From IMG/VR virus record IMGVR_UViG_3300037067_007515, positions 5,202 through 69,201 of that record: DNA of 64,000 nucleotides; one strand, 5' to 3'. This DNA is from a virus. Lineage: Duplodnaviria; Caudoviricetes. The notes below the pieces were generated by a model. It ran no database searches. It had not been told where the DNA came from and worked only from the letters and a program-made list of their open reading frames with translations. Both the position numbers and the translations under genes were made by a program. Shown here piece after piece: positions 4,618 through 27,429 of this stretch. The stretch's first letter is position 1, and each line of letters starts with the position of its first letter.

Positions 4618-4931
4618 GTGCCCTCCTTGGCTTTCGCGACCTCGGCTGCCGCGTTCAACACCTTACGTACTTCCTCCCCTACGTCCTTGCCCTCGGCCGC
4701 CGCGAGGAGGATATCGGGGAGCGCCGCCTGTATCGCCGCGCGCTTGGCGGCGCGGGCCTCGGCCTCTGCGTCCACCTCGGGCGCTCGGATCTGCGCTTTT
4801 CCGTCGACGATCGTCACGGTCTCACCGGGCTCGGGAAACCGCTCAATCTCGTACCACCCATCTCCCGGGCACTCGTTCGCGCGCACCCCATGCGACTCGC
4901 TCGCTGAAAGCCTCTGGTACCACAGCTTCAT
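4599..4931 (-). CDS. Probable tail fibre assembly chaperone
   Basis: Follows the tail fibre with an ATGA overlap; homologue at 50508-50822. Confidence 0.55.
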   Translation of the reverse strand: MKLWYQRLSASESHGVRANECPGDGWYEIERFPEPGETVTIVDGKAQIRAPEVDAEAEARAAKRAAIQAALPDILLAAAEGKDVGEEVRKVLNAAAEVAKAKEGTCSKTS

Positions 4932-6997: not shown

Positions 6998-9900
6998 CAG
7001 TCCTCCCTGTCCTCCGGCGGCCCTCCGATGAGCCACCACGCATCGCCCTCGGTGAAGGCGCGGATTATCCGCTGCACGGGCACCGCTCCTCCGAATCCCA
7101 GGAGCCGGAGAGCCGATGGAGCCGCATTGATCGCCGCTTTCAGAAGGCCTTCGGTGTCGCCCTCCTGCGCCTCCTTCACGATCTTCGCTCCCCTTTGGAT
7201 GGTCTCGGCGATGGGGGCCTTCAGCGTGCTTCCGTAGAGGGTCGATCCGTAGGCCGGCTTTCCCGCCACCGTCGAAACGAGGACATCCCCGACGAAAGGG
7301 GACGGGGCAAGGAACTGCGATACGATATCCTCCGCGATCTCCTTCTCGTCCTTGGGCAGGCGTTTACGGTCGATGGCGCCCATGATGATCCCGGTTATCG
7401 CGAAGGCCCCTCCGAGACGCACGGCCCACATGACCTTTTTCAGGGCCGCGAGCTCCCGGTTCTTCATTGCCGTGGGAAGATCGTGCCAGAGCATGTTGTA
7501 CATCTGGTTTAGCTGGTTCCCGAACAGCACGAGCCACTTTCCGGTCGGGCTCTTCTGAATGGACGTGAGGTCCTTCGTCTTGCCCTGGGGCTGCGTCCGG
7601 AGCGTGGCGTCCTTTGCGGCAGCGGTTGCGGCGGCTTCCTTGGTGGCCGCATCGCCCTCGGTCGTGGCGTAGACGTGGTCGTACACCCCTTTCCATCCGA
7701 TCAGGGCGGTGCCGAGATCGAACTGCTCGAGGGCCCACACGCCGAGCATGTTCGCGCGGTCCGCGAATCGCTTGGTCTTGTTCCACTGGCGGAGGTGCAT
7801 CTCCTCGAACTCGGGGTGCGCGACACGGTCCGCTATCTGAGGATCGTGAGATGTCACGAAGTCGTAGAGCTTCCGGCTACCGAAAAGCCACTGCGCCTGC
7901 GCGGAGTAGAGCCTGCCCGCGTTCGCGTACGGGAGGTAGAGCCACTTGGCGAACGTCGGCCAGTTCCTGGCGTAGCTGGTGAGATTCCAGGCGATCCCGC
8001 TCACCGTGACGTTCCCGCGAATCCGCTCGGATAGCTTGATGACTGGGTCCCACTCGTGGGAGTGCTTCGGGTTGGCTACGTCTGCGATGTACTGCTTGAC
8101 AATCCTGGCCATGTCCTCCCCGTGAGCCCGTACGATCTCCCTGAGTACCGTGGGGCGGGTGTAGACGTAGTTCATGTTCTCCACAACCTCCTGGTAGGCC
8201 AGGAGGTGCTCGTGCTTCTCGATCGCGTCGAGCGCTATCGCGAAAGCATTCAGGCTGATCTTCTTCGTGCTCTTCACTCGGCTGATCGAGCTTCCCTTGT
8301 TCACCCTACCTCTTCTTATTCCGGACCGGCCCGCGATGTCGTCGAGGATCTGCTCCTCGTGCTTCTCATAGAGCGCACCCTGGACTACGGTTGGGAAGTA
8401 CTTCTTCACCTCTTCCGTGTCCGAGTTGAGGTACTCAACGCAGAAGTCCAGGAAGCGATCCTTGTCCTTGCCCTCGAAGAGGGACATGAGGAAGTCGCCC
8501 ATCTGTTTCTGCTTCGGGGATAGCGAGCCAATGAGGATCGCCGCGCTCCTGTCGTTGATGCCGGTCTCGCCCATGAGGTGGCGCTTCGTGTCCTCGTTCT
8601 GCATGTAGATGTACACCGCGAGTGCTTGGTTCTTGTTGTAGACGTCCTCCCCTACCTTCACGAGGCGGAAGAAGTCGCGGGGTTTCAGCCCGAGCTCCTT
8701 CATCTTGGCCGGGATCTGCATCTTCCGCCGCAGGACGTTCACAACCTTCTCGTCCTCTGCGGCGTTCACGGCGCCTACCAAGAGTCGGGAGTTCGGTCCG
8801 TTCGGCTGGCCTCCATCAAGGATCTCCGCCAATCGGTTCGGGCGGGTGTTGATGAGGTCAAGGAGTGCGAGCTTTCCGGTCTCCACGGCTGTCGCGTACG
8901 ACTCGCTTCCGGTGCCGGTGGGCAGCGTCTTCTTCGGCTTCACGCTCGATAGCACCGGCAGGACGTCGTTCCAGAGGGCTTCCTTCTGGCGCATCCTCTC
9001 GTACTTCTTGCGGCCGAGAGCCTGGCGCCCCGCGGTCCGGAGGTCGTTTACCTCCTTCTGGTAGGCCTCGAGCTCCTCCACGGTCATGTCGCGCACGAGG
9101 CGCTGGTCGATGATCCTCTGCGCCTCCGCGGGTAGAGCCTTGCCGGGGTTCGCGTTCTTCCATGCCTGGAGCTTGTCGCGGAGTTGCTGGTGGGCGGTGA
9201 TGTCCTTCACCACGAGGCGGTCCTGCATCGCGCGGACTTCCCGGGCCTTGGCGACGGTCATGCCCTTCCCTGGCTTGCGCATGATCGACTTGATGAGGCG
9301 GTCGGCGTGCGCCTTTGTCTGCACGGCCTCCCGGTAGTCCTTCATGCGCTGCTTCTGTGCCGCGAGGGTAGCGGCTGCCTTCTCCTTCGTCGTTGCGAGC
9401 TTCGCCGCGGCCTTGTCGCGTTCCTCCCGGCGCGCCGCTATGACCGCTTTCTTCCCTTCGCGCTCGGCCTGGGCCAGGGCCGTCTCCGCCTGCTTGACCG
9501 TGGCCTCCTGGGCGGCCTGTTCCTCGGCGATCTGGGCGAGGAGGTCACGGGTCGTGGCCTTGGCGGTGATCTGCTCCGCTCCCGCACGCTCGGCGATCTC
9601 CTTCGCCTTCATGGTGGCGACGTCGGCGCGGAGCTGCTCTCGGAGGGTGCCGAGCTCCTGGCGGGAGGCGAGCTTCTCTATCTCGCCTATCTTCTTGGTG
9701 AGGAGCGCGTTCTGTCGGCGGAGCTCGCGGTTGGCTTCCTTCGCCTGCTCTATCGCCGCGGCGTCGGGGTCCGTCTCCTGCTCGCGGGCGATCTGGTCGG
9801 CCGCGGCCTCGTCTCCCAGGACCTGCGCGATGACGGCGCGGTACTTCGTGGGGTTGTCGCGGAGCTGCGCGAGGAGCTTGGCGCGGTGGGCATCGGAGAT

Positions 9901-16685: not shown

Positions 16686-17969
16686 CTACACCACGGCCTG
16701 CGAAGCCGGAAGCGTGTCGATGAATCCGCTCGCGGCAGTGAGGATGCTCGACACCGCGCCCACTCCGGCGGCTGCCACGATAGAGCTCCTGTTCGTGACG
16801 AGGTTCGTCTTGTGCCGCGCGGCATCCGCGAGACTACGCCGGTACTGCTGCGTGAGGATGTCGGCCTGATCCTGGATGTCCTCCTTCGCCTGGTCGGTCT
16901 GGAGGATTGCGGTGTTCAGGTCGCGATCAAGTTGCTCGGCCGCGAGGCGCGCTTCGTTCTTGATCCGCGCCGCCTCCTGCTTGTACTGGGTATCCTCGGT
17001 CTTCTCTTGGTAGGCGAGTTCGGCGGTCTCCTGCTTCGCCTGACGCTCGACGTCTGCGGTGCTCGCCTCCAGGTTCTCGTAGGTCTGCCTGAACGCGAGC
17101 TCGGTGTCCTCGCGCGTGCGTTCGAGTTCTTTGTCGGCGAGAGCGTTTGCGGCCATGACGTCTTCAACGCTCTGCTCGGCTTCGGTTCTCGCGGAACCTA
17201 CTTCCTGGGCATAGCCCATGGCCGTAGCCTGGACGGTGTAACGAGCTTGGCGCTCGGCCTCCTGTTGCTCGGCCCGTGCTGCTTTCTCTACTTGGCGGAG
17301 CGCGAGAAGCGGGGATCCAGTTGCGCGGACGGCCGTCGCCGCGAGCCCCGCCCTGGCCTCCCCGGCTTTGAGCGAGGCCTCTTCCTTTGGGACTCCTACC
17401 TCGTACTCGGCCTGTTGGCCGGCGCGGTTGAGGGTGAGGATCGCCTCGTCCTTGGTCTGGGCCAGGAACTGATCGCGCTTGGCCGTGATCTGGGAGACCT
17501 TACGGGCGGACTCGACGTCGCCCTCTTCCGCTCTCTTCGTGAGCTGCCCGAGACTCTGGTCCTTGGACTCGAGGGCTTGCTTTTTGGCGAGCTCGATCTT
17601 CTCGCGTTCGGCCGCCCGGTTCTCTTCTACCGCGGCCTTCCGCCGGTCGTACTCATCCTGGTCGATCTCGTGCTTCTCGAGGAGGTCGGCCAGCTCCTGC
17701 TCGACACGGGAGGTGTAGGCGTCGCTCTCGTCGATGGTGACTTCGAGCTTTTCCGCCGCGATCCTGGTTTTCTCAGCCTCGAGGAGGGCGTCGGCCTGCG
17801 CGATCTCCCTGGTGCGGTCGGTCTCGACGGCCTCGATCTGCTCGTTGAGACCGGCGATGGCGCTGTCGAGGTCTTCGATCATCGCATCGATGTCGTCCTC
17901 GGCCGCGTCCATCTTCATCGCGGCGGCGGTGAGTGCTACGAACATCCCGAGGATCGCCAAGAACCCCAT
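16686..17969 (-). CDS. Internal virion protein, 427 aa, coiled coil with hydrophobic termini
   Basis: Follows the nozzle gene; homologue at 63181-64000. Confidence 0.7.
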   Translation of the reverse strand: MGFLAILGMFVALTAAAMKMDAAEDDIDAMIEDLDSAIAGLNEQIEAVETDRTREIAQADALLEAEKTRIAAEKLEVTIDESDAYTSRVEQELADLLEKHEIDQDEYDRRKAAVEENRAAEREKIELAKKQALESKDQSLGQLTKRAEEGDVESARKVSQITAKRDQFLAQTKDEAILTLNRAGQQAEYEVGVPKEEASLKAGEARAGLAATAVRATGSPLLALRQVEKAARAEQQEAERQARYTVQATAMGYAQEVGSARTEAEQSVEDVMAANALADKELERTREDTELAFRQTYENLEASTADVERQAKQETAELAYQEKTEDTQYKQEAARIKNEARLAAEQLDRDLNTAILQTDQAKEDIQDQADILTQQYRRSLADAARHKTNLVTNRSSIVAAAGVGAVSSILTAASGFIDTLPASQAVV

Positions 17970-19939
17970 TACGTCTCCACCTCGGGGATCAAGGCAAGGA
18001 TCATACTGCGGTAGGGCTCGTCCTGGATGGCCATGACCCAGGTATCGCGGTCACTCGCCCCGCGGAAGGGACACTCGTAGATTCCGCTGACCGACCCCGT
18101 GAAGGGCATCGTTTCAAGCTGCGCAGCCGTCGACACGCGCCCGAGCTTGCAAGGGTAGCTCGTGAGGACCTCGGCGTAGACTTTGGAGATCTGGCGGAGC
18201 CTCATGTCTCCGGGGCCGTACGGCCCTTCGGTGTGGATCCGCATGGTCTTCATAGTGCAGGTGAATCCCGCGCCCACGACAAGATGGTCTCCGACACAGG
18301 CCGCCGGGGTTGTGAGCACGCCCGCCGTTACCGCCGCCGTGTAGACCGCGCTCTCGGTGACGTTCCATATGGTGGCCGTCGTCCCGGTGAATCTATCGAG
18401 GCCGGTCACGGTGGCGCCGGCCGTAGCGACGTTGACCCAGGCGTCGAGCGGGATCGCCGTCATGTCCTCAATGCCGTCCCAGAGCTCCACGCAGTACTGA
18501 GTGCCGCGGAGCGTTATAGTCCAGACGGCATCCCGCGCGGTACCTCCGGTGACGCCCACACTCTGGACGAGGCCCCCTCCCCCGCAGGTGAGCCGATGCC
18601 AGGCCCGCATACCGAGCTTTCTGTCGTAGGCCAGCGCGCACAGCACCCCGTCCGAGCGGACAGCGTAGACCATCGGCCAGGGAATCACCGCAAATGCCGC
18701 TTCGACCACGGTGCCGGTAGACGTGAAGATGTGCTCGGCGTGGTAGCTGAGATCCTCTACCGATTCCTCCGTTGCATCCCCTACGGGGTACTCCCGGAGG
18801 CGCGTCGCGCTCACCTGCCAGAAGAGCATGGCGTCGCCGATCAGACACCCCGAGACCGCGGCGCCGCCGTTGTGGGTGGAGGGCTGGAGTTTTTCGGGTG
18901 TGAGCGCCGTCATGTCGGCAGGGATCGTGTACTCGACGCCGGCCGTCGAGACGAGGAGAAGCGTTCCCGCTATGAGCTCGTTGACGGTCATCGCGGTATC
19001 GCTCGCGAGCGTCAGCTCCATCGCGGAGTCGGCGGTTGTGAGGTCGCGATAGACCGTGACAGTCTCGAGCTCGGGGATGTCCGGATCAGCCCACGAGGCT
19101 ACGGCCTCGAGCTGCTCGACGTCGTAGCGGAGCCGCTCGAAGTAGGTCATGTCGATGGAGCCTGACGCGCACCAATAGTCCCATACCGCAGTTCCATCGG
19201 TGATCGCCGCAGTTGTCCCGGTCGGTCCGCCGGATCCCGCCGAAGTCCCTGCGGTGACGCAGGTATAGAGCTTGCCGGTGTCGTTAGAGACGATATCCCC
19301 GATCTCGTACGCCGTAGAAGCCGTCCAGGCCACGGCCCTAGCCTCGGTGTAGATCCCGACGCGGCTCGCCCAGAGGGTTCCGGGATCGTTCGTCGACCGC
19401 CCGAACCACAGCCTTTGTCCGAAGCCGGCGATACACCCCGGGTAGTCCCCGGTAGCAGAGAACGGTACCACGCCCGTGTTGCCGACGATGACGGCCGCGC
19501 CGATAGTGAACGTGGAGCCGGTCCACGTTACCTTCTGGATAGCGTAGCCTTCGCAGACGATGAAGAGCGTGTTGCCGTCCACGGCGAAGCGAAGGGCTCG
19601 GCACGCGGCCGCGGTCGTGTAGGGGGTCACGAGCTCGAGGGGAGCGCCGAACAATGCACCCGCAGCCGTCCAGAACCGGAGCACGAGCGCGGTGAACTCG
19701 AGCATGTAGCAGGTCCCGCTCGGGAGTCTCCAGCCCTGGAGGCGCCCCAGGACGTTGTTCTTCGTGGTACCGAGGTACTTGGTTCCCGGCCGCGTGATGA
19801 CCCCGCCCTGGGAGAACGGCATCCAGTTTTCGAGGGTGAGGCACCCCTTCTGATAGATCGCGAGGTCCCACCGGGCAGAGAACTTCGGCGTGAGCTCTCC
19901 GGCTGTGAAGTCTGTGATGGGGACAGCGGAGAATGCCAC
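17969..19939 (-). CDS. Tail nozzle (T7 gp12 / P22 gp10-like tubular protein B) with one inserted CBM-like module
   Basis: N-terminal ITDFTAGELTP...NWMPFSQGGVITRPGT is typical of podovirus nozzle proteins. Confidence 0.8.
   Translation of the reverse strand: MAFSAVPITDFTAGELTPKFSARWDLAIYQKGCLTLENWMPFSQGGVITRPGTKYLGTTKNNVLGRLQGWRLPSGTCYMLEFTALVLRFWTAAGALFGAPLELVTPYTTAAACRALRFAVDGNTLFIVCEGYAIQKVTWTGSTFTIGAAVIVGNTGVVPFSATGDYPGCIAGFGQRLWFGRSTNDPGTLWASRVGIYTEARAVAWTASTAYEIGDIVSNDTGKLYTCVTAGTSAGSGGPTGTTAAITDGTAVWDYWCASGSIDMTYFERLRYDVEQLEAVASWADPDIPELETVTVYRDLTTADSAMELTLASDTAMTVNELIAGTLLLVSTAGVEYTIPADMTALTPEKLQPSTHNGGAAVSGCLIGDAMLFWQVSATRLREYPVGDATEESVEDLSYHAEHIFTSTGTVVEAAFAVIPWPMVYAVRSDGVLCALAYDRKLGMRAWHRLTCGGGGLVQSVGVTGGTARDAVWTITLRGTQYCVELWDGIEDMTAIPLDAWVNVATAGATVTGLDRFTGTTATIWNVTESAVYTAAVTAGVLTTPAACVGDHLVVGAGFTCTMKTMRIHTEGPYGPGDMRLRQISKVYAEVLTSYPCKLGRVSTAAQLETMPFTGSVSGIYECPFRGASDRDTWVMAIQDEPYRSMILALIPEVET
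19172..19327 (-). repeat. CBM5/12-like module copy 1 (in the nozzle)
   Basis: WTASTAYEIGDIVSNDTGKLYTCVTAGTSAGSGGPTGTTAAITDGTAVWDYW. Confidence 0.85.
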
Positions 19940-19942
19940 TGC

Positions 19943-20881
19943 CTACACCTGGTCCCAGGGCGTGGGCTCGGTCGGTGACTCCGTGGCCTCCTCCATGGCC
20001 ACGGGGCGCGCGGTGGCGTACCAGGAGCCGAAGGTCTGTTCGGCCTTCTCCGCTCGCTCGGCGTCCCCGGTAACATAGAGGCAGATGTCGGCGACGATCC
20101 GCATGGCGACGGTGGTCTGAAGGAGCTCGTCCCACATGGTGGGGTCGGTCTCTTGGCGGACGTAGAGGAGCACGGAGGGGTCCTGGTTCGTGTAGATCCA
20201 GAGGCCTTCCCTCTTGTACGCGATACCCTGCACATCCTCCGATGCAGCCCCATCGATGGGGACCTTGACTATCCGCAGGCAGTCAATGGGGCGGATCCAT
20301 AGGTAGTCGTAGCTCGTTCGGTTCGCGGGCGGCGTGCCGTAGTAGCACCAGTGCGCGGTGCCGTCAGTGATGTCGGTCGTCGTTCCCGTTGGGCCTCCCG
20401 AGGCCGCGGAGGTGCCGGCGGTGATGCAGCGGTAGACTTTCCCGGTGTCGTTACTGACGACGTCGCCTACCAGGTATGCGGTCAAGGCGACCCAGCACCA
20501 GTTGTTCGCGGTGGTCGAGGCTTCCTTGTAGTCCCATACCACAGTCCCGTCAGTGATGTCGTCCGTGGTGCCCGTAGGGCCTCCGGAGGCCGCGGACGTT
20601 CCCGCCGTGGTGCACTCGTAGGTCTTCGCGGTGTCGTTCGTGCAGCGGTCGCCCACCTCGTAGCGGTGGCTGAGCGTCCACGGCGTGGCCTGATCGTGCC
20701 ACCCGAGCATAGACTGGCGCTTCAAGCACGAGGGCCAGGCCATGAGGCGGAGAACGTCGTCCCGGCAGACAGAGTACGCCGCGATAGCTGCGGCCTGGTT
20801 GCGAGTCGTGTCGGACATGCTGGAGGCGTCGGGCTGGCCGAGCAGGCGCAAGGCTCTGTTTACGATCTCTAGATTCGTCAC
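19943..20881 (-). CDS. Tail adaptor (T7 gp11 / P22 gp4-like tubular protein A) with two inserted CBM-like modules
   Basis: TNLEIVNRALRLLGQ...RDDVLRLMAWP...YVRQETDPTMWDELL adaptor pattern. Confidence 0.8.
   Translation of the reverse strand: MTNLEIVNRALRLLGQPDASSMSDTTRNQAAAIAAYSVCRDDVLRLMAWPSCLKRQSMLGWHDQATPWTLSHRYEVGDRCTNDTAKTYECTTAGTSAASGGPTGTTDDITDGTVVWDYKEASTTANNWCWVALTAYLVGDVVSNDTGKVYRCITAGTSAASGGPTGTTTDITDGTAHWCYYGTPPANRTSYDYLWIRPIDCLRIVKVPIDGAASEDVQGIAYKREGLWIYTNQDPSVLLYVRQETDPTMWDELLQTTVAMRIVADICLYVTGDAERAEKAEQTFGSWYATARPVAMEEATESPTEPTPWDQV
20339..20680 (-). repeat. CBM5/12-like module copies 2 and 3 (tandem, in the adaptor)
   Basis: WTLSHRYEVGDRCTNDTAKTYECTTAGTSAASGGPTGTTDDITDGTVVWDY and WVALTAYLVGDVVSNDTGKVYRCITAGTSAASGGPTGTTTDITDGTAHWCY. 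Confidence 0.85.
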
Positions 20882-20935
20882 CTACGTCCCTTCCTGTGAA
20901 GCAGGGCGGGCCCCGAAGAGCCCGCCCGTCTTGCT

Positions 20936-21223
20936 TCAGGCCCTGGCCCTTGCCCGCGGCTTCTCGGACGGCTCGACCTTCATGGCCGCCGCCCGGGTGT
21001 TCTTCCTGGCCCGCTCTTCCTTACCGAGCTGGTCCTCGAACTGCTTCTCTGCCAGCTTCACCTGGTCCCGGTCCATCTCGGCGAACGGCAGGAAGTGCTT
21101 GAGCAAGCCGTTGCCGCCTTTGACGGCGAAGGCCTTCTCGTCGATGGTGTACAGGGCGTCCTTCTTGTAGAACTTGCAGCCCGTCGAGTCGTAGCAGTCC
21201 CGTACACACTTCGCTTGGATCAC
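20936..21223 (-). CDS. Small hypothetical protein of the head/tail region
   Basis: GTG start with an AGAGGGG SD; position between cement and adaptor genes. Confidence 0.6.
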   Translation of the reverse strand: MIQAKCVRDCYDSTGCKFYKKDALYTIDEKAFAVKGGNGLLKHFLPFAEMDRDQVKLAEKQFEDQLGKEERARKNTRAAAMKVEPSEKPRARARA

Positions 21224-21257
21224 TGTATCACCCCCTCTCTTGAGCTATGTCCCTCGC

Positions 21258-21683
21258 CTATAGCGCGGGGACTGAGACATCGACCGCCGGCCGGAGATCC
21301 CAGGCCCCAGCCGTGAAGACATCGGTGCCGATCGTGTAGATCGCGCCGAAGTACCTGAGCAAGGTATCGGCGTAGGTCACCGGAATCCTGGGGTACGGCA
21401 TGGCGTTGACCGCCCAGGCGACGATGGTCGCGTTGGGGATGGTCCCGCTGTCCCAGATGACCGTGGACGCCGTGAGCGCCGCCGCCGCCGACGTCACGAT
21501 CTGAATCTGGAGCGTACCGCCGCCCGCCGACACGATGGCCGTCGTGACGCGGAAGAAGTACCACAGGGGATCGACGATCCGCCTGCCGGACACGCCCAGA
21601 TCGACCACGTTGTCAGAGATGTGCGTGGTTGCGGTGGTCTCAGCCTGGGCCGTGGAAAGGTCACCGAAATTGTCTAGGTACAT
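21258..21683 (-). CDS. Capsid cement/decoration protein (Bbp16-like)
   Basis: MYLDNFGDLSTAQAETTATTHISDNVVDLG... directly after the major capsid gene with a GGGGAAGG SD. Confidence 0.7.
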   Translation of the reverse strand: MYLDNFGDLSTAQAETTATTHISDNVVDLGVSGRRIVDPLWYFFRVTTAIVSAGGGTLQIQIVTSAAAALTASTVIWDSGTIPNATIVAWAVNAMPYPRIPVTYADTLLRYFGAIYTIGTDVFTAGAWDLRPAVDVSVPAL

Positions 21684-21694
21684 GCCTTCCCCCT

Positions 21695-22690
21695 TTAGCT
21701 CACCACCGACTCGGTGTTGAGGATCTGATCGTTCCGCTTGATGGGAACGCCGAGGAAGGAGAGAACCGGCTTCCCCTCCGGGTTGGTGACGTTCAGCATG
21801 GTGTTCGCGTTCGCGCGCGCCTGCTTCCAGAGCCACGTCCTGACGGTCTGGTTGCAGTAGAACACGGCGTTGCCCATGTTGATGTCGGGGATGCGCTCGT
21901 AGGCGTCGATCATCGCCGCGAACAGATCGACGGTGGAGGTGGTGATCGCGCTCGTGTCGATGTTGCAGATGCGCACGACGTAGCGCCAGTCGCGCACGGT
22001 CATCCCGAGGTCCCACTTGTAGTGGGAGCGGTAGCCCTGGTAGTGACCGGCGGGGGTCTGATCGTCGTCGAGCGTGACCTCTCCCAGGTCCTGGTGCTGA
22101 AAGCCGGCCACCGAGCCCTTGGGGTAGATCCCGTGGCAGGTGTTCTCGCCCCAGACGATGAGATGCATGCTCGTCTGGTCGCTGCCCGAAGCGGAGCTGT
22201 AGGCAGAGACGGTGTTGTAGGTGCTCACCGTGGAGTCCGTACCGATGGAAGCGTAACGCGGGTTGATACCCGTGAAGCGCTCCGGGTAGGTGAGGATGGA
22301 GCCGTAGGCGAGCGTGCTGGCCATCGCCTGGTTCATGGCCTCGAGGAACGGACGATCCTCGGAGAGCCGCCACGCGGCAGCGTTCCCGTTGAGGTCGGCG
22401 AGAGCCTTGTCCACCTCGGCGTAGGCCTCCAGCATACCGCAGGAGTCCTGGATCTTGGACGTCACGCTCTTGGACGGCTGCACGCCATAGTTGAGGATGC
22501 GCCAGGTTACCGTAGGCATACCCATGCGGACCGTGGTGACGTGACCGGTCGGGAGGTTGCCCTCGAGTACGATCATGTCGTCCAGGATCTTGTTCGTCTG
22601 CTTCAGCAGCTCGATGATCGTGGTGACCTTGTTGTCGGGGCCAAGGCGGGACTGAAGGTCCGCGTACGAGACCCCGGTTAGGGTAGACAT
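21695..22690 (-). CDS. Major capsid protein (Bordetella BPP-1 Bbp17-like)
   Basis: IIELLKQTNKILDDM...GNLPTGHVTTVRMGMP...CGMLEAYAEVDKALADLNGN...SEDRPFLEAMNQ...VRDWRYVVRICNID. Confidence 0.9.
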   Translation of the reverse strand: MSTLTGVSYADLQSRLGPDNKVTTIIELLKQTNKILDDMIVLEGNLPTGHVTTVRMGMPTVTWRILNYGVQPSKSVTSKIQDSCGMLEAYAEVDKALADLNGNAAAWRLSEDRPFLEAMNQAMASTLAYGSILTYPERFTGINPRYASIGTDSTVSTYNTVSAYSSASGSDQTSMHLIVWGENTCHGIYPKGSVAGFQHQDLGEVTLDDDQTPAGHYQGYRSHYKWDLGMTVRDWRYVVRICNIDTSAITTSTVDLFAAMIDAYERIPDINMGNAVFYCNQTVRTWLWKQARANANTMLNVTNPEGKPVLSFLGVPIKRNDQILNTESVVS

Positions 22691-22708
22691 GCTACCCTCC
22701 TGTCCGGG

Positions 22709-23536
22709 CTACTTCGCCTTCGGGTACATGACATCGGCTGGGTTCTGAGTAGGCGTCGGCGCTCCACCTTCGACGAAGGGCCTCGGGCTCATGCCGCGCC
22801 CGAGCTCCGCGAAGAACCGGATGAACTCCATGTCGTTCGCGAGGCCGGACCGGCTCAGCTTGTCGGCGAGTCCGGGAAACTTCTCGAAGTAGTGTTGCGC
22901 TGCCCGCTCCATGTATCCGGTCTGAAGGGCATAGTCACCCTTCCACAGGGACTTGAGCTCGCCCTCCGTCTGCGCGACCGTAGCCTTGACCTGTTTCGCG
23001 GCCTCGACGGCATCGGACAGGCGAGACTTCTGGTCCCACAGAAAAAGTTGGCTGAGCTGCGCCTGCGTGAGACCGGCCTTGTGGGCGGCCTCCGCGAGAG
23101 CGGCCATCCTGGTGTCCGGATACTCGAATCCAGCCGGAGCCTTACCCTTCTCCAGCTTGTAGTCCGTGGGTTTGTCGGGCACTCCGATCGCTTTGCGATA
23201 GGCTGCCCGTTCCTCGGCCGTGCTTTTCTCGTTTGGTACGGTCACGCCGGTCTTCGCCTTGGTTTCCACGTAGTGCGCGACAAGGTCCGGGGCGCCCCGC
23301 GGGAAGCGGGTCGCGAGTTCCTTGACGAGCTCGGTGTTGGCCTTCTGCTCGGACGTCAGTGCCGCCACCCATCCGGGGGGCTGGTCCGTGGCGCCACCTT
23401 CCGCCAACGGCGGGGTGGCTGGTGTGCCGGTGGTTTTCGCGGTCAGGAACCCGGCGGATCCCTGGCCTGCGTCTCCCGCCTGCGGGGCGGGGCTTCCTTG
23501 AGTGGTCGCCCCGGCGTCTGCATTCTGGTCGATCAT
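22709..23536 (-). CDS. Capsid scaffolding protein
   Basis: Low-complexity N-terminus, G(I)VPDKPTDY motif, ends ADVMYPKAK, immediately upstream of the capsid gene. Confidence 0.75.
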   Translation of the reverse strand: MIDQNADAGATTQGSPAPQAGDAGQGSAGFLTAKTTGTPATPPLAEGGATDQPPGWVAALTSEQKANTELVKELATRFPRGAPDLVAHYVETKAKTGVTVPNEKSTAEERAAYRKAIGVPDKPTDYKLEKGKAPAGFEYPDTRMAALAEAAHKAGLTQAQLSQLFLWDQKSRLSDAVEAAKQVKATVAQTEGELKSLWKGDYALQTGYMERAAQHYFEKFPGLADKLSRSGLANDMEFIRFFAELGRGMSPRPFVEGGAPTPTQNPADVMYPKAK

Positions 23537-23790
23537 GTCTTTCCTTCCCTCGTGACCAGGGCCGCTATGATGCGCCTGGTCGAATTGCGCTTGATCCTCG
23601 CAAGGATCATTACCGCCGTGTTGTGCCGCGCGATACCTTCGGGGCCCTTGATCTCGTCGAGCAATCCCAGCTCTTCGAGAAGACTGGCCAGCACGATCTG
23701 TCCGTCCTCGGTCTGCGTGAGGTTCTCCCATGCCCGGTCGATACGCGCGGCGCGATCTTCCGGTTTGAGCTCAAGGACGGATTCAAGCAC
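23533..23790 (-). CDS. Bbp19-like small head-region protein
   Basis: LTQTEDGQIVLASLLEELG...EGIARHN pattern upstream of the scaffold gene. Confidence 0.6.
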   Translation of the reverse strand: MLESVLELKPEDRAARIDRAWENLTQTEDGQIVLASLLEELGLLDEIKGPEGIARHNTAVMILARIKRNSTRRIIAALVTREGKT

Positions 23791-23854
23791 CCTGATCCTC
23801 CTTTCAAGGGACCGGGCGGCCCCGGGACGAGCCGGGACCGCCTATCCCACACGC

Positions 23855-24520
23855 TTACATGCCGGCCGGCAGCGGCAGCTCGGCGAACACGAAGCTCGTC
23901 ACGTAGGTCGTGGACGAGGCCACGACACCCACGAGAGAGATCGCGGTTCCGGGGGGAAGTCCCATTTCCCCGTCGAAGTTGTACTGGAGCAGGGAGAACT
24001 CCAGGTTGGCCTCGGTTCCGGCCGCCCAGCTCGAGAACCCGAGGCTCATGATGGGCGTGGGCTGCGTCGTCCAGGTGACCGTGGCTCCCGCGTACCGACC
24101 CTTGCCGGCGCCTCCGCCGAGCAGGAGGTTGAGCGGCGCGATGTTGGTGAACGACGCGAACGTGCCGCCGGTGGCGACCTCCTGAGCGGAGGGCGTGTAC
24201 GCCAGCAGGTAGCTGTCGTCCAGGTAGGTCGCGATGGCCGCTAGGCCAAGGTTGATGCGGATCGGGACGATGAGCTTGCCCGATCCGGGCGGGTTCCACA
24301 GCGTGGGGCTGTTGGTCGCCGTCGAGTAGATCGGAATCGCCGCCGGGGCTGCCGGGGACGTCAGCGTGGAGTACATGTAGCCGCGGCTCATCCACTCCAG
24401 GTACTTCGGTCCCTTCATGCCCATCAGCATCGCCCCCCAGCGGTCGCTACCGACCTCAGAGGGGATTCCGTCAGCGACCGGGCCGACGAGGCCGGGCCGT
24501 ACCGAGATGGGGTTGCCCAT
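23855..24520 (-). CDS. Hypothetical beta-rich protein in the head operon
   Basis: GGAGG SD, 221-aa ORF co-oriented within the operon. Confidence 0.7.
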   Translation of the reverse strand: MGNPISVRPGLVGPVADGIPSEVGSDRWGAMLMGMKGPKYLEWMSRGYMYSTLTSPAAPAAIPIYSTATNSPTLWNPPGSGKLIVPIRINLGLAAIATYLDDSYLLAYTPSAQEVATGGTFASFTNIAPLNLLLGGGAGKGRYAGATVTWTTQPTPIMSLGFSSWAAGTEANLEFSLLQYNFDGEMGLPPGTAISLVGVVASSTTYVTSFVFAELPLPAGM

Positions 24521-24529
24521 GTGGGCCTC

Positions 24530-25045
24530 CTATACTCCGAGCTCGCGATCGCTCTCTTCGGCCGCCTGGTCCCGGTCGGAACCGGATCCAGACTGCACCT
24601 CCAGGAGCATGCGTACCCGCTTGAGCTCAACGAGCGTCAGGTACGTCAGTTTCGCGAGCGGGGAATCCTTGACTTCGATGGCGCCGTCGGAGGCGTATGC
24701 CTCGTCCATGGCGCCTGCGCCCCTCCGGGCAAACGCGGGAACGTCGAGGAGGAAGTAACCCTCCACGATGCATCGGATCGACTCCGAGGGGCTTGCGGTG
24801 ACGATCAGGAGCTCTCCGTACTCGACGACGAGCGTCCCTTCCCAGCCGGTTTCGCGCCGCGCCGGTAGCGAAGCCTCCACGAGCGGCTCCCTACCGGGGC
24901 TCTTCGCCGACACCACGCCGGCGTTGTCGCTCTCGTTGCGGAACGTGACCTTGGTCACGACGTAGACGTAGCCGGGTTTCGGCTCTACGGCCGTCCCGCT
25001 GCCTCCGGTCACGAGACCCGAGTACAGGTTGATCTTGGCGCTCAT
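24530..25045 (-). CDS. Hypothetical protein in the head operon
   Basis: ATGA overlap with the upstream gene; 171 aa. Confidence 0.7.
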   Translation of the reverse strand: MSAKINLYSGLVTGGSGTAVEPKPGYVYVVTKVTFRNESDNAGVVSAKSPGREPLVEASLPARRETGWEGTLVVEYGELLIVTASPSESIRCIVEGYFLLDVPAFARRGAGAMDEAYASDGAIEVKDSPLAKLTYLTLVELKRVRMLLEVQSGSGSDRDQAAEESDRELGV

Positions 25046-25713
25046 AGGGCCTCCAGCGTGTAGACCATGGCCGTGATCGACATGGTCTCGAGCTCCGGCG
25101 TGTAGATGACGTGCAGCACGTTTGCCTCTCCGGTCTCCACGATCGCGGCGCTCGGCCAGATCGTGGGGAGGATCAGCCGCGCGGGGAGTATCGGGCCGAC
25201 AAGCTCGCCCGTGGCGACCGCGCTCCCGTGCCAGTCATGGAACGAGGATCCGAAGTCCCGGGACTGTCTGATGTGGAGCGCAAAGGTGAGCGACCAGAAA
25301 GCGTCCGTGTGCTCGGCCTCGTCGAGTGGGACGTCGTAGGTGTCCAGGACCGGACGGCTCTCGGCCTTGTGCTCCCACGTGACCGTTCCGTCCGTGATGG
25401 AGGCTCCGCTTCCGGTGGGGCCGCCGCTTGAATCGGACGTTCCGGCGGCGGTGCATCGGTACTTCTGGAGGCCGTCGTTTGTCACGAGATCCCCGATTGC
25501 GTAGGCGTGGCTCGGGATCCAGTTCGGCGGGCAGATCGCGACCCGTAGTTGGATGGTCGCGGGGCCCTCGGGCTTGCTCAGCTTGCCCGCCAACTGCCCG
25601 CGGAGAACCATGCCCGGGGTCAGGGAATTGGCCGGGAGACCCACGAGCGGAACCAGCTCTGCGGATTCCGCGTCGGTCAAGGTCTTGTAATTGGCGTCCA
25701 TCGCGTACAACAC
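25042..25713 (-). CDS. Hypothetical protein with one CBM-like module
   Basis: GGAGG SD + GTG; contains WIPSHAYAIGDLVTNDG...GGPTG...ITDGTVTW. Confidence 0.75.
   Translation of the reverse strand: MLYAMDANYKTLTDAESAELVPLVGLPANSLTPGMVLRGQLAGKLSKPEGPATIQLRVAICPPNWIPSHAYAIGDLVTNDGLQKYRCTAAGTSDSSGGPTGSGASITDGTVTWEHKAESRPVLDTYDVPLDEAEHTDAFWSLTFALHIRQSRDFGSSFHDWHGSAVATGELVGPILPARLILPTIWPSAAIVETGEANVLHVIYTPELETMSITAMVYTLEAL
25365..25521 (-). repeat. CBM5/12-like module copy 4
   Basis: WIPSHAYAIGDLVTNDGLQKYRCTAAGTSDSSGGPTGSGASITDGTVTWEH. Confidence 0.85.
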
Positions 25714-25725
25714 GCTCGTCCTCCT

Positions 25726-27429
25726 TTAGGCGGCGCCCTGGACTGCGCCCTGGGGCGCGCCCTTCTGCGCCGGCCGCGCCTTCGCGGCCTGCTGTGCCAT
25801 CTGCTCGAGCATTGATCCGGACTTCACGGGCTGGTTGAGGCTGTCGACGTTGCCCATTACCTGGGCGTCCGTTGCCGCCGCTGCCTGGGCCTGCTGCTGC
25901 TTCGCGAGGGCGTCGGCCCTGCGCTTGCGCACCATCTCCACCATGGGGATCTCGCGGATCACGCGCTGCGGCATGCCCGCGGCGTCGAGTCCGATCCTGT
26001 AGAACTCGTCCTGGTCGACGTTATCCATTCCGTCCGGCAGTAACTTGACGGCACGCTCGAGGAACTCCATGCCGGCATCCACTCCCTGGCTCTGGTGGGT
26101 CCGCCTCTGCGCCTGCGCGAGCGGGCCCTGGAGCTCTACCTTCATGCGGCCCTGGAGCTGCGGGGGGGGCGCGGGTATAGTTCCCGTCTGGCGGAGAATT
26201 CCGTAGGTCCTACGCACGAGCGGTACCAGGACCTCGTTGTTGAAGCGGCCGATGGTCGCACCGAGGACCGCGACTTGCTCGGCCACGCGCTGGCGGATCT
26301 CCGTCGCGGTGTAGGGCCCGTGCTCGAGCTGCTGGAGGAGGAGGAATATCTTCGAACGGAAGATCTCTTTGATCTGCTCCTCTACGGCCTCTTGCTGATC
26401 GCGGCCAATAGGGTACGAGCCGCTGTAGTCGACGGTCCTGATCTGCTCGTCACTGGCCATGTAGTTGAAGCCGTGGGGTACGATGCGTTCCTTGCCCTTG
26501 AGAGAAGCGGGCAACATGAGCGGTGGATCGCTCGCCATGTGGCCTGTATGGAGGAGGTCCTTCGCCATCTGGTTGACGCGGAGGATGTCCTGGATCGCGT
26601 CGGCCGCCGGGGAGCGTCCGTATACCTCGTCGCTATTCTTCCGCCACCGGCCGACGAGGTAGGGGAAGGTTTCGTAGTAGCCGCCCGGATCAAGCAGCTT
26701 CTGCATGTCCTGGTCGATGTAGAGGTCGGTGTAGGCCCCGCGCGGTTCCTCGATAGTCCGGAAACCCTGATCGGCAGAGGGGAACGTCGCGTGAATGATG
26801 TTGCCCCTTGAGAACGGGGTAGAGGCCGCGAGCTCCTTGCGCCGCTCGTCGATCTTGTCGGGCCACGTCTCCACGATCTGCCGGTTGGTCATCGTGAAGC
26901 CGCGGTAGAGCACGTCCACGAGACCGGCCCGGTTCTCGGCGATGTAGCACTCTTTCATGTGGCGGGTCGAGAACAGGATGGAGCGGTTGCGGACGTCGTC
27001 TTCCACGAGCATGACCGCGGTACCGATAGAGCCGAGGTCCATCAGGAACTCGTTCATCGACTCGTAGAACTGCGTGCGCTGGTAAACGGCCAGGATGATC
27101 TCGTCGATAGACTCCAGATGGTCGGCGACCCCGGGGATGGTCTGGAGCCTGCGGTCCTCCATGACCATGTGGAGCCACGGGAAGGCCGCGGAAACCATGT
27201 TGCCCTGCATGCCATCGACGAGGAGCTGGAGCGATGCTATCGCGGTTCCGTCGTAGGCCTTGGTAGACGGGGTCTTGCCGGAGGAGTCGTCGACGTCCCA
27301 GAACGTCCGGCGAGGGAGAACGTAGTCCGTGATGTCCTGCCAGAGGGGGCGCCAGAGCTCGCGCTGGAGTTTGAGCTGCCCCAAGCGCTGGATGTGGTCC
27401 TGGATTACCTCGGGCTCTGAGGCGATCAA
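25726..27429 (-). CDS. Portal (head-to-tail connector) protein
   Basis: WQDITDYVLP...YDGTAI...FPYLVGRW...EVYGRSP...MASDPPL...TATEI...QVAVLG typical of T7/BPP-1-type portals. Confidence 0.9.
   Translation of the reverse strand: MIASEPEVIQDHIQRLGQLKLQRELWRPLWQDITDYVLPRRTFWDVDDSSGKTPSTKAYDGTAIASLQLLVDGMQGNMVSAAFPWLHMVMEDRRLQTIPGVADHLESIDEIILAVYQRTQFYESMNEFLMDLGSIGTAVMLVEDDVRNRSILFSTRHMKECYIAENRAGLVDVLYRGFTMTNRQIVETWPDKIDERRKELAASTPFSRGNIIHATFPSADQGFRTIEEPRGAYTDLYIDQDMQKLLDPGGYYETFPYLVGRWRKNSDEVYGRSPAADAIQDILRVNQMAKDLLHTGHMASDPPLMLPASLKGKERIVPHGFNYMASDEQIRTVDYSGSYPIGRDQQEAVEEQIKEIFRSKIFLLLQQLEHGPYTATEIRQRVAEQVAVLGATIGRFNNEVLVPLVRRTYGILRQTGTIPAPPPQLQGRMKVELQGPLAQAQRRTHQSQGVDAGMEFLERAVKLLPDGMDNVDQDEFYRIGLDAAGMPQRVIREIPMVEMVRKRRADALAKQQQAQAAAATDAQVMGNVDSLNQPVKSGSMLEQMAQQAAKARPAQKGAPQGAVQGAA

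What the first reader, a model, noticed from the sequence alone, without database searches (positions are those of the whole stretch)
19172..25521. One ~52-aa CBM5/12-like module inserted four times into core tail-machine and head-operon genes
Seen: the module W-x5-Y-x2-GD-x3-ND-x2-(K/Q)-x-Y-x-C-x2-AGTS-x2-SGGPTG-x4-ITDGT-x2-W occurs once in the nozzle (19172-19327), twice in tandem in the adaptor (20339-20680) and once in the gene after the portal (25365-25521). In the adaptor it inflates a normally ~200-aa protein to 312 aa. Established: W-x5-Y-x2-GD-x-V...Y is the signature of CBM5/12 (chitin-binding type 3) modules, and accessory Ig-like or carbohydrate-binding domains on virions aid adsorption. 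Inference: a mobile glycan-binding module has colonised the oligomeric neck and nozzle, giving a multivalent collar of binding sites. This is unusual because such modules usually decorate fibres or capsids rather than the adaptor.
Basis: partly seen in the sequence, partly recalled or inferred. Interest (0 to 1): 0.75.

Follow-up and report, generated by a model that had tools for sequence, protein, structure and literature searches.

The report
Sugar-binding-type modules in phage neck
A short-tailed phage carries four old, well-conserved copies of a small chitin-binding-type module spliced into its neck ring, tail nozzle and a gene next to the portal; this probably forms a sticky collar, though what it binds is untested.

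Summary
Exactly four ~52-aa copies (56-73% identical in protein) lie at the stated coordinates. One is in the nozzle, two are in tandem in the adaptor, and one is in a 223-aa gene after the portal. A profile built without the window's own copies finds only these four in the 69-kb contig.

The module is a distant relative of CBM5/12. It belongs to a very large, unnamed subfamily (3149 representative clusters). That subfamily occurs mostly in phage tail spikes, fibres, esterases, baseplate, cement and connector proteins.

- The two ChiA1 residues named for chitin binding align to Thr and Gly, so chitin binding is not supported.
- The adaptor pair is a clean 122-aa insertion into a normal ~190-aa adaptor.
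- The pair is present in 13 of 13 related viral contigs and is better conserved than the adaptor core.
- The nozzle copy sits at two different sites in sister lineages, which supports mobility.

An outward-facing, multivalent glycan-binding collar is the best reading but is unproven. The scan noted similar neck insertions before on other DNA. I rate it a new variant of a known kind, of moderate interest.

The parts
17969..19939 (-). Nozzle (tail tubular protein B-like), 656 aa, host protein of one module
   Evidence: phrog_376 'tail protein' 2.8e-81. PDB 8ck1_A 'Tail Nozzle' 2.1e-20. tblastn matches tail tubular B / BPP-1 Bbp13-like genes in 86 phage records, all below 60% identity.
19172..19327 (-). 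Module copy in the nozzle (aa 205-256). It lies in a ~100-aa insertion (aa 199-301) relative to the Carin-1 nozzle.
   Evidence: Pfam CBM_5_12 E 1.8e-5, 25.1 bits, cut-off 26.2. Window-free profile i-E 6.7e-23. Query 163-198 aligns to 8ck1_A 329-364 and query 302-478 to 373-550. Sister lineages carry the module on the other side of a conserved ~45-aa segment.
19943..20881 (-). Adaptor (tail tubular protein A-like), 312 aa, host protein of the tandem pair
   Evidence: phrog_394 1.3e-29, with aa 188-309 on profile positions 67-184 of 190. Profile of 63 homologues against 8ck1_E 'Connector Protein' 8.5e-14.
20525..20680 (-). Adaptor module 1 (aa 68-119)
   Evidence: i-E 1.9e-21. Groups with module 1 of related adaptors and with the post-portal copies (support 99/98).
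20495..20524 (-). 10-aa linker between the two adaptor modules (aa 120-129)
   Evidence: The most conserved part of the adaptor: 72% mean pairwise identity among 59 full-length homologues.
20339..20494 (-). Adaptor module 2 (aa 130-181)
   Evidence: Pfam CBM_5_12 E 9.4e-4 at aa 130-160. Window-free profile i-E 6.3e-25. Groups with module 2 of relatives and with the nozzle copies (99/98).
25042..25713 (-). 223-aa gene directly after the portal gene; role unknown; host protein of one module
   Evidence: ORF. Only two full-length homologues were found (P0121 99%, P0122 57%); all other hits cover the module alone. No PDB hit at E up to 10. No Pfam family except the module. No homologue detected (phmmer E<=1e-5) in the 5 related loci that span portal to scaffold: L004, L009, L011, L012, L013.
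25366..25521 (-). Module copy in the post-portal gene (aa 65-116)
   Evidence: Pfam CBM_5_12 E 8.9e-3. Window-free profile i-E 7.4e-22. Sister to the P0122 copy inside the adaptor module-1 group (97/93).
25726..27429 (-). Portal gene (context)
   Evidence: PF12236 Head-tail_con 3.9e-112.
21695..22690 (-). Major capsid protein gene (context)
   Evidence: PF20911 GP7 3.7e-123.

Best explanation
The four copies belong to a very large, so far unnamed subfamily of CBM5/12-type modules. Its consensus is W-x5-Y-x2-GD-x-V-x-N-x-G-x2-Y-x-C-x-T-AGTS-x2-SGGPTGT-x3-ITDGT-x2-W-x-Y. It keeps the aromatic positions W1, Y7, Y21 and W49 of the small chitin-binding fold, has a longer last loop, and has lost the two ChiA1 residues named for chitin binding.

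Shown:
- In this phage lineage the module was spliced long ago into loops of three virion-operon proteins.
- In the adaptor it is a tandem pair placed right after the N-terminal helices.
- In the nozzle it lies in a loop next to a conserved segment.
- It also lies in a lineage-specific 223-aa protein encoded beside the portal.

Inferred:
- By analogy with solved adaptors, the adaptor insertion point is where the peripheral beta-dock domain begins.
- If the adaptor is a 12-mer and the nozzle a 6-mer, as in solved relatives, the tail would carry 24 + 6 modules on its outside.
- These modules would form a collar of weak binding sites for a host-envelope or matrix polysaccharide other than chitin.
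- Such a collar would help capture the virion and hold the short tail at the cell surface while the fibre or spike does the specific recognition.

The identity, the insertion, its age and its conservation are shown. Outward orientation, a glycan ligand and a role in adsorption are inferred.
For: Kinship with CBM5/12:
- It is the only Pfam family over the module.
- A 28-sequence module profile hits ChiA1 ChBD 1ed7 at 1.4e-5. Nine of its 10 PDB hits carry chitin-enzyme or carbohydrate-binding names; the others are the Pam1 tailspike and a dioxygenase.
- 93 of 127 scanned subfamily representatives match PF02839 at E<=1e-3 (48 of 73, 45 of 54).

Company that points to polysaccharide work:
- The module sits in proteins with pectate-lyase-like or beta-helix domains (5+4+3), GDSL esterases (6+3), Phage-tail_3 (3), Mtd_N, T7 tail-fibre N and depolymerase C domains.
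- It also sits in non-phage secreted proteins: Por_Secre_tail (3) and Peptidase_S8 (1).
- Some proteins carry arrays of up to 10-15 matched stretches.
- The one solved structure with a full-length match is the Pam1 tailspike receptor-binding domain, 7eea residues 496-544 (E 9e-4). A passage of PMC9382816 says that domain's beta-helix and distal beta-sandwich are proposed to recognise host extracellular polysaccharide.

Clean insertion at a peripheral place:
- Adaptor residues 3-83 and 191-310 align to Carin-1 connector protein residues 4-85 and 70-201, so aa 68-189 are extra.
- In A1002 gp47, an adaptor of similar length, residues 49-157 form the beta-dock domain where fibres or collar proteins attach (passages of PMC13730344).

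Selection:
- The pair occurs in 13 of 13 related loci. The nozzle copy occurs in 7 of 7 informative loci.
- Modules and linker are 60-72% identical among 59 adaptors, against 49-54% for the adaptor core.

Mobility:
- There are two nozzle insertion sites in sister lineages.
- Copy number at the adaptor site is 1, 2 or 3 (2, 67 and 1 of 70 adaptors).
Against: - No fold could be predicted, so neither the fold nor the orientation of the modules was tested.
- The window's own copies are below Pfam's cut-off.
- ChiA1 Q679 and W687 align to Thr and Gly. The title of Hara et al. 2013, seen in a reference list, names these two residues as involved in chitin binding. The classical binding face is therefore absent and no alternative face is known.
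- Modules that are more conserved than the core are not what one expects of a receptor binder in an arms race. That pattern fits a conserved partner, possibly a phage protein, equally well.
- The same module also sits in cement, Baseplate_J and gp6-type connector proteins. In those proteins a structural role is as plausible as a binding role.
- No experiment on this subfamily was found. Searches returned nothing on a CBM in an adaptor or nozzle.
Confidence: 0.5

Rival explanations
1. Structural dock or brace. The inserted modules bind other phage proteins, not sugars. They would enlarge the adaptor's beta-dock platform to hold the fibre or spike or an accessory collar, or brace the neck against the capsid. 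The nozzle and post-portal copies would be matching contact pieces.
For: - The insertion lies where the beta-dock domain starts. In solved podophages that domain holds fibres or collar proteins (passages of PMC13730344).
- Modules and linker are more conserved than the adaptor core, as expected for a fixed partner.
- The ChiA1 residues named for chitin binding are replaced.
- The module also occurs in cement, Baseplate_J and connector proteins.
- 179 of 273 fetched carrier proteins have exactly two full-length copies, which hints at a fixed two-module unit.
Against: - The subfamily is most often attached to polysaccharide-active enzymes and receptor-binding proteins. It also occurs in non-phage secreted proteins, which have no phage partner.
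- Arrays of up to 10-15 matched stretches look like avidity devices, not docks.
- Copy number at the adaptor site varies from 1 to 3, and the nozzle site differs between lineages. Both are awkward for a precise protein-protein interface.
Confidence: 0.3
2. True chitin or cellulose binding. The collar would tether virions to chitinous or cellulosic particles where hosts live, as canonical CBM5/12 modules tether enzymes.
For: - Best sequence kinship is to the chitin-binding domains of chitinases and chitin deacetylases.
- A related Vibrio phage nozzle is annotated as 'chitin-binding type-3 domain-containing protein'.
Against: - ChiA1 Q679 and W687 align to Thr and Gly in the module, and Gly holds in the subfamily consensus SGGPTG.
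- CBM5 modules rely on a conserved exposed Y-W or W-W pair (passages of PMC8449059). No such pair is present in the module.
- In my scan the Vibrio phage nozzle matched E1_FCCH and not CBM_5_12.
Confidence: 0.07
3. Neutral passenger. The module is a selfish or tolerated insertion with no function in these proteins.
For: It is promiscuous across many unrelated proteins, and it sits in loops where other lineages carry other small domains, such as E1_FCCH at aa 179-242 of a Vibrio phage nozzle.
Against: - It is retained in 13 of 13 adaptors and 7 of 7 informative nozzles across adaptors down to 50% identity.
- It is better conserved than the host protein.
- The four copies differ at 26% of DNA columns yet keep 24 invariant residues.
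Confidence: 0.05

Closest known systems
[quoted passage not shown]
   Same: The first ~31 positions align well: W, Y, G-x-x-V, G-K-x-Y-x-C and T-S (E 1.4e-5 with the 28-sequence module profile). The aromatic positions W1, Y7, Y21 and the final W are kept.
   Different: The last loop is about 6-8 residues longer (ITDGT insert). Q679 aligns to Thr and W687 to Gly. The window's copies score below Pfam's cut-off. The ligand is unknown.
Pam1 cyanophage tailspike gp17 receptor-binding domain (PDB 7EEA), residues 496-544
   Same: It is the only solved chain that matches the module over its full length, including the AGT...PT.T...DG..W.Y half (E 9e-4; also 1.3e-3 with the adaptor profile). It is a phage virion protein proposed to recognise host polysaccharide (passage of PMC9382816).
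   Different: There the module is part of a tailspike, not a neck protein. Its own role in that structure is not described in anything I could read. The original structure paper is not in the library.
Adaptor and nozzle of Cobetia marina podophage Carin-1 (PDB 8CK1: the 222-aa 'Connector Protein' chain and the 830-aa 'Tail Nozzle' chain; PMC13730344 calls them gp46 and gp44) and BPP-1-like phages (BcepC6B gp11/gp12)
   Same: The core adaptor and nozzle are homologous (8.5e-14 and 2.1e-20). The gene order is the same: portal, scaffold, capsid, adaptor, nozzle.
   Different: These adaptors are 191-222 aa with no insert. Their nozzles carry other insertions at the neighbouring site. Carin-1 has about 210 extra residues between 116 and 329. 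Vibrio phage PS25B.1 has an E1_FCCH domain at 179-242.
Separate collar proteins on the adaptor beta-dock domain of podophages DEV, GP4, A1002 and VP1
   Same: Extra protein mass decorates the periphery of the adaptor ring (passages of PMC13730344).
   Different: There the collar is a separate jelly-roll protein. Here the extra domains are fused into the adaptor chain itself and have a different fold type.
Ig-like and other accessory binding domains on virions (adherence-to-mucus idea; recalled, not read here) and tail tubular proteins acting in adsorption (PMC7241545, abstract start seen)
   Same: The concept is the same: weak accessory binding by structural virion proteins, including tail tubular proteins A and B.
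   Different: The domain type differs, and the placement is inside the adaptor and nozzle chains.
Earlier notes of this scan on other DNA (e1-5181422, e1-5655684, e1-020021, e1-493813)
   Same: They describe CBM5/12-like modules spliced into head-tail adaptors of other types or carried by portal-adjacent proteins. One note also reports loss of the chitin-binding residues.
   Different: The host protein families differ (Mu gp36-type, gp6/gp15-type). These are unchecked AI notes and I use them only as leads.

Membership tests
CBM5/12 (Pfam PF02839 CBM_5_12) | Whole-protein score at or above Pfam's gathering cut-off (26.2 bits) | tested here: not met
   The window proteins score 25.1 (nozzle), 19.6 (adaptor) and 16.5 (post-portal) bits, and only profile positions 1-31 of 44 are matched. 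Some subfamily relatives do pass: P0074 31.4, P0071 31.7, P0102 43.5, P0103 32.1.
CBM5/12 (Pfam PF02839 CBM_5_12) | Significant sequence kinship to solved CBM5/12 domains | tested here: met
   The module profile A5 hits 1ed7_A at 1.4e-5. It also hits chitin oligosaccharide deacetylase domains (8yh4 at 8e-3, 3wx7 at 0.19), 6z41 at 0.017 and 4tx8 at 0.35.
CBM5/12 (Pfam PF02839 CBM_5_12) | Conserved core aromatic residues (a Tyr and a C-terminal Trp; Y265 and W299 in CjCBM5 per PMC8449059) | tested here: inconclusive
   W1, Y21 and W49 are invariant in the 28-sequence alignment and Y7 is nearly so. W1, Y7 and Y21 align to aromatic residues of 1ed7. The C-terminal Trp lies beyond the HMMER-aligned stretch, so its equivalence is by pattern only.
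CBM5/12 (Pfam PF02839 CBM_5_12) | Exposed aromatic binding residues (W687 plus Q679 in ChiA1; Y-W or W-W pair in CBM5) | tested here: not met
   In the HMMER alignment to 1ed7, chain position 33 (W687) aligns to Gly of SGGP and position 25 (Q679) to Thr. The numbering is derived from the 45-residue chain, with position 1 taken as residue 655 from recall. The role of the two residues comes from the title of Hara et al. 2013, seen, and from passages of PMC8449059.
CBM5/12 (Pfam PF02839 CBM_5_12) | Small 'ski-boot' beta fold | not testable with these tools
The ESM Atlas holds no model of the adaptor or of the 223-aa protein.
CBM5/12 (Pfam PF02839 CBM_5_12) | Binding to chitin or cellulose | not testable with these tools
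   This needs a binding assay.
Podophage adaptor (tail tubular protein A; T7 gp11 / Carin-1 gp46 / BPP-1 Bbp14 type) | Homology of both halves of the core, and a gene placed just upstream of the nozzle gene | tested here: met
   phrog_394 1.3e-29. 8ck1_E 8.5e-14 with both halves aligned. Weaker hits to other adaptors: 9efk_T, 23sh_Y, 8es4_C, 9s5j_X. The gene order is shown.
Podophage nozzle (tail tubular protein B; Carin-1 gp44 / BPP-1 Bbp13 type) | Homology across the protein to a solved nozzle | tested here: met
   phrog_376 2.8e-81. 8ck1_A 2.1e-20 in three significant aligned stretches. Pfam PF25675 Phage_nozzle did not match the window's protein at E up to 1, although it matches BcepC6B gp12.

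The most novel reading that the evidence does not exclude
The extended 'AGTS-GGPTG-ITDGT' module may not be a chitin binder at all. It may be a distinct, portable adhesion unit that phages repeatedly splice into the ring proteins around the portal axis: adaptors of at least three unrelated types, nozzles at alternative loops, and portal-adjacent proteins. The neck itself would then be a multivalent receptor-binding organ with 24 + 6 sites. In short-tailed phages this collar, and not only the fibres, would set the first reversible step of adsorption and the orientation of the tail.
Probability: 0.2. Interest if true: 0.65.

Novelty: new variant of a known kind. Interest (0 to 1): 0.45.

Why it matters
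Accessory binding domains on virions are known, and Pfam already flags CBM_5_12 in many phage tail proteins. What is new is the placement and the subfamily.

- A tandem pair is fused into the dodecameric adaptor.
- A single copy is fused into the nozzle.
- Both are kept across a whole uncultured BPP-1-like podovirus clade.
- The subfamily is huge and unnamed (3149 representative clusters), lacks the classical chitin-binding residues, and has no tested ligand.

If the modules bind host polysaccharide, the neck of these phages takes part in adsorption. That matters for predicting host range from genomes, because current tools look at fibres and spikes. If instead they are docks, they show a new way of mounting fibres on an adaptor.

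Either way, one binding assay plus one multimer model would assign a function to thousands of annotated-as-hypothetical phage proteins.

Tried and rejected
- **Structure prediction.** No model, no fold search and no test of outward orientation were possible. The ESM Atlas has no model of the adaptor or of the 223-aa protein. Its feature hits are only leads: viral clusters with CBM_5_12 in 20% and 11% of members, SU10_adaptor in 85%, and E1_FCCH in 27%.
- **Cultured phages.** tblastn of the whole adaptor and of its module pair against 50,697 phage records found nothing. BLAST's low-complexity filter may mask the Gly/Ser/Thr-rich half, so this is weak evidence of absence.
- **Prophage or host search.** A scan of 185,579 species genomes with the adaptor alignment gave 16 pattern matches but no relative. 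The host remains unknown.
- **Identity of the 223-aa protein.** I found no PDB hit, no Pfam or PHROG family beyond the module, and only two full-length homologues. Its neighbours of 171 and 221 aa are also blank. The 171-aa protein has a weak nucleoside diphosphate kinase match (E 0.07), which I take as chance.
- **NCBIfam.** No family matched the three window proteins or three other carriers.
- **Recent duplication or gene conversion among the four copies.** Rejected. DNA identity is 74% and the copies group by position across genomes. That tree rests on 52 columns and has eight unresolved forks.
- **Module as ancestral in all BPP-1-like nozzles.** BcepC6B gp12 shows only a non-significant look-alike at aa 245-281 (E 0.17 for the protein, 0.73 for the stretch, among 345 ORFs). 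Not accepted.
- **Literature.** Searches found no paper describing a CBM in an adaptor or nozzle. One search (W687) found nothing. One search led to PMC8449059. Searches served to identify 8CK1 and 7EEA. Supplementary files were not opened, and figures S8 and S10 of PMC13730344 were seen as legends only.

Full report
**1. What is there**

The region lies in the structural operon of a short-tailed phage, and every gene is on the minus strand. The genes, in order of transcription, are:

| Gene | Coordinates | Size | Evidence |
|---|---|---|---|
| Portal | 25726-27429 | 567 aa | PF12236 3.9e-112 |
| Unknown | 25042-25713 | 223 aa | none beyond the module |
| Unknown | 24530-25045 | 171 aa | none |
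| Unknown | 23855-24520 | 221 aa | none |
| Scaffold-like | 22709-23731 | 340 aa | phrog_3742, phrog_458 |
| Major capsid protein | 21695-22690 | 331 aa | PF20911 3.7e-123 |
| Unknown | 20936-21223 | 95 aa | none |
| Adaptor | 19943-20881 | 312 aa | phrog_394 1.3e-29 |
| Nozzle | 17969-19939 | 656 aa | phrog_376 2.8e-81 |
| Large downstream ORFs | further downstream | 427, 904, 2319 aa | ORFs only |

The window is bases 5202-69201 of a single 69,201-bp contig. I did not test that. Only one unit contains these structural genes.

The order portal, scaffold, capsid, adaptor, nozzle matches the BPP-1-like phage BcepC6B. The nozzle finds 86 phage records, all below 60% identity.

**2. The observation**

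The four copies are real.
- They align with 24 invariant columns out of 52 and 56-73% identity to the nozzle copy.
- Mean DNA column identity is 74%, so they are not fresh duplicates.
- A profile built from them finds only them in all six frames of the contig.
- A profile built from 24 modules of unrelated carrier proteins, with no window sequence, finds the same four at i-E 6e-25 to 2e-21. The next best hit has E 1.6.

**3. What the module is**

CBM_5_12 is the only Pfam family over the module, but all three proteins fall under the 26.2-bit cut-off (25.1, 19.6 and 16.5 bits). Only profile positions 1-31 of 44 are matched.

I ran the four-copy profile against 1.84 billion representative proteins.
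- 3149 proteins match at E<=1e-3, 1076 at <=1e-10 and 43 at <=1e-30.
- Most matches cover the full module.
- Some proteins have up to 15 matched stretches.

I then built a 28-sequence module alignment from the four window copies and 24 others and searched the PDB with it.
- The chitin-binding domain of B. circulans chitinase A1 (1ed7) matches at 1.4e-5.
- The Pam1 cyanophage tailspike receptor-binding domain (7eea, residues 496-544) matches at 9e-4 over all 50 profile positions.
- Below these come the CBM12 domains of chitin deacetylases, a CBM of a C. japonicus LPMO, a chitinase and a dioxygenase.

The module is therefore a diverged, longer relative of CBM5/12.

In the HMMER alignment to 1ed7, chain position 25 aligns to Thr and position 33 to Gly of the SGGP motif. 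Taking chain position 1 as residue 655 (recalled), these are Q679 and W687. Hara et al. 2013 name those two residues as involved in chitin binding; I saw only the title, in a reference list. Passages of PMC8449059 state that CBM5 modules depend on an exposed Y-W or W-W pair plus a third aromatic residue, while another Tyr and a Trp form the core.

The phage module keeps W1, Y7, Y21 and W49 but has no aromatic residue at the binding position. Chitin binding is therefore not supported. Binding of some other ligand is open.

**4. Where else the module occurs**

Of the 150 best representatives, I scanned 127 against Pfam (P0141-P0267). I did not scan six (P0268-P0273) or the 17 ids already known in those two calls.

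| Pfam family | Members (n=73) | Members (n=54) |
|---|---|---|
| CBM_5_12 | 48 | 45 |
| Pect-lyase_RHGA_epim (pectate lyase-like) | 5 | 4 |
| Beta_helix | - | 3 |
| Lipase_GDSL_2 | 6 | 3 |
| Phage-tail_3 | 3 | - |
| Baseplate_J | 3 | - |
| Phage_cement | 2 | - |
| Por_Secre_tail | - | 3 |

Single cases were SU10_adaptor, Phage_nozzle PF25675 (7e-165), Mtd_N, T7 tail-fibre N, depolymerase C, Peptidase_S8, collagen and DUF3383.

Ten carriers from the first searches were scanned. They include Phage_cement (2), Baseplate_J (2) and a gp6-type connector (PF05135). Four of the ten pass Pfam's CBM_5_12 cut-off.

Of all 273 fetched proteins, 179 have exactly two full-length copies.

The company is mainly receptor-binding proteins and polysaccharide-active enzymes. 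There is a minority of neck, baseplate and capsid-cement proteins and a few non-phage secreted proteins.

**5. How it sits in the adaptor**

A profile of 63 adaptor homologues matches the Carin-1 connector protein 8ck1_E at 8.5e-14, in two pieces. Query 3-83 aligns to residues 4-85, and query 191-310 to residues 70-201. The overlap at Carin-1 residues 70-85 shows that window residues 68-189 (two modules, their linker and a short tail) are a clean insertion between Carin-1 residues about 69 and 70. Removing them leaves 190 aa, the length of the phrog_394 profile.

Cultured relatives have 191-207-aa adaptors with no module.

In A1002 gp47 (219 aa, TM-score 0.66 to the Carin-1 adaptor), residues 2-48 and 158-208 form the helix bundle. 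Residues 49-157 form the beta-dock domain, which in most Gram-negative podophages carries fibres or a collar (passages of PMC13730344). By that analogy the pair starts about 18 residues into the beta-dock region, on the outside of the ring. This step is inference.

**6. How it sits in the nozzle**

Against the Carin-1 nozzle, query 163-198 aligns to residues 329-364 and query 302-478 to 373-550. Window residues 199-301 (the module plus about 45 aa) therefore replace 8 residues of Carin-1.

- In the window and L001 the module lies after a conserved segment (PFS..GDYP...QR...G....WAS).
- In L002, L007, L009 and L011 the module lies before that segment.
- The two sites are about 45 residues apart.

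Carin-1 has about 210 extra residues at the upstream site. Vibrio phage PS25B.1 has an E1_FCCH domain at residues 179-242. The nozzle thus has insertion hot spots, and the module has landed, or moved, at least twice.

**7. Age and selection**

A scan of IMG/VR returned 34 loci. L001-L013 carry adaptor relatives of 50-70% identity.
- The tandem pair is present in 13 of 13, with L012 and L013 cut by contig ends.
- The nozzle module is present in 7 of 7 loci whose nozzle ORF reaches the site (L001, L002, L003, L007, L008, L009, L011).
- L005 ends after 90 aa. L010 diverges from L009 at about residue 151, probably through an assembly break. Neither is informative.
- No homologue of the 223-aa gene was detected (phmmer E<=1e-5) in the five loci that span portal to scaffold (L004, L009, L011, L012, L013). 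It has only two full-length homologues.
- Among 70 fetched adaptors with both core halves, 67 have two modules, two have one and one has three.

A tree of 20 modules (52 columns, eight unresolved forks) gives two groups, each with 99/98 support. One holds adaptor module 1 plus the post-portal copies. The other holds adaptor module 2 plus the nozzle copies. Copies therefore group by position and not by genome.

Among 59 full-length adaptors, mean pairwise identity differs by region:

| Region | Mean pairwise identity |
|---|---|
| N-terminal helices | 54% |
| Module 1 | 65% |
| Linker | 72% |
| Module 2 | 60% |
| C-terminal part | 49% |

The insert is under at least as much constraint as its host protein.

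**8. Mechanism**

The best reading (about 0.5) is an outward collar of weak glycan-binding sites on the adaptor and nozzle. With the 12-mer adaptor and 6-mer nozzle seen in solved relatives, that gives 24 and 6 sites. The collar would help capture the virion and orient the short tail. The evidence is the module's kinship, the company it keeps, the tailspike precedent, and the arrays seen in other carrier proteins.

The main rival (about 0.3) is a protein dock or brace. It is favoured by the high conservation, the beta-dock location, the lost binding residues, and the presence of the module in cement and connector proteins.

True chitin binding (about 0.07) and a neutral passenger (about 0.05) are unlikely. 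The remainder is something not considered here.

**9. Comparison and novelty**

I found no paper that describes a CBM in an adaptor or nozzle. No solved adaptor or nozzle matches the module.

Related known facts:
- CBM_5_12 is flagged in a prophage tail protein (passage of PMC12579547).
- Tail tubular proteins A and B of a Vibrio phage bind a host receptor (PMC7241545, abstract start only).
- Separate collar proteins sit on some adaptors (PMC13730344).

This scan has already noted CBM5/12-like arrays in other adaptor types and in portal-adjacent proteins on other DNA (e1-5181422, e1-5655684, e1-020021, e1-493813). I did not check those notes. The theme recurs.

My verdict is a real, old and conserved feature. 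It is a new variant of a known kind, of moderate interest.

**10. Limits**

- No fold was predicted, no orientation was tested, and no ligand is known.
- The host is unknown; a scan of species genomes found no relative.
- Cultured-phage searches may be blinded by low-complexity masking.
- The module tree is short.
- The residue numbering of ChiA1 rests partly on recall.

Noticed in passing
window 18950-19939 (-); L002, L007, L009, L011 nozzle genes: The module lies after a conserved ~45-aa nozzle segment in the window and L001 but before it in four sister loci. These are two alternative insertion sites in one protein family.
   Followed up: partly
L035 (Vibrio phage PS25B.1, MW824406.1) 3977-6298: This nozzle homologue is annotated 'chitin-binding type-3 domain-containing protein'. 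In my Pfam scan it matches E1_FCCH at aa 179-242 (7.6e-11) and not CBM_5_12. A different small domain may occupy the same hot spot.
   Followed up: partly
L036 (BcepC6B gp12) aa 245-281: There is a non-significant look-alike of the second half of the module (protein E 0.17, stretch E 0.73, among 345 ORFs). It resembles the 'PTHTSG...DG' form seen in the Pam1 tailspike and could be a decayed or sister form.
   Followed up: no
all 273 fetched carrier proteins: 179 of 273 carry exactly two full-length copies of the module, which suggests that the pair is the working unit.
   Followed up: no
window 19943-20881 (-): The collection's gene call for this adaptor (P0001) is 291 aa and starts 21 codons later. 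Homologues of 310-317 aa align from residue 1, so the 312-aa start looks right.
   Followed up: partly
window 23855-25045 (-): Two genes of 171 and 221 aa lie between the 223-aa gene and the scaffold gene. They have no Pfam or PHROG match and no convincing PDB match. The 221-aa one is conserved in L001 and L005.
   Followed up: partly
L010 3429-4619 against L009 10943-12200: L010 is identical to L009 through nozzle residue ~151 and then continues as unrelated sequence. This is probably a chimeric or broken contig.
   Followed up: partly
window 3761-4435 (-): This 224-aa ORF has metallo-endopeptidase/endolysin-type PHROG hits confined to aa 179-221. The 703-aa ORF 4928-7039 after the 2319-aa gene has no family match and may be the fibre or spike.
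   Followed up: no
ESM Atlas neighbours of the adaptor: Viral clusters near the adaptor include SU10_adaptor proteins of 287 aa and a 256-aa cluster in which 27% of members carry E1_FCCH. This hints that other adaptors also carry inserted small domains. It is a lead only.
   Followed up: no
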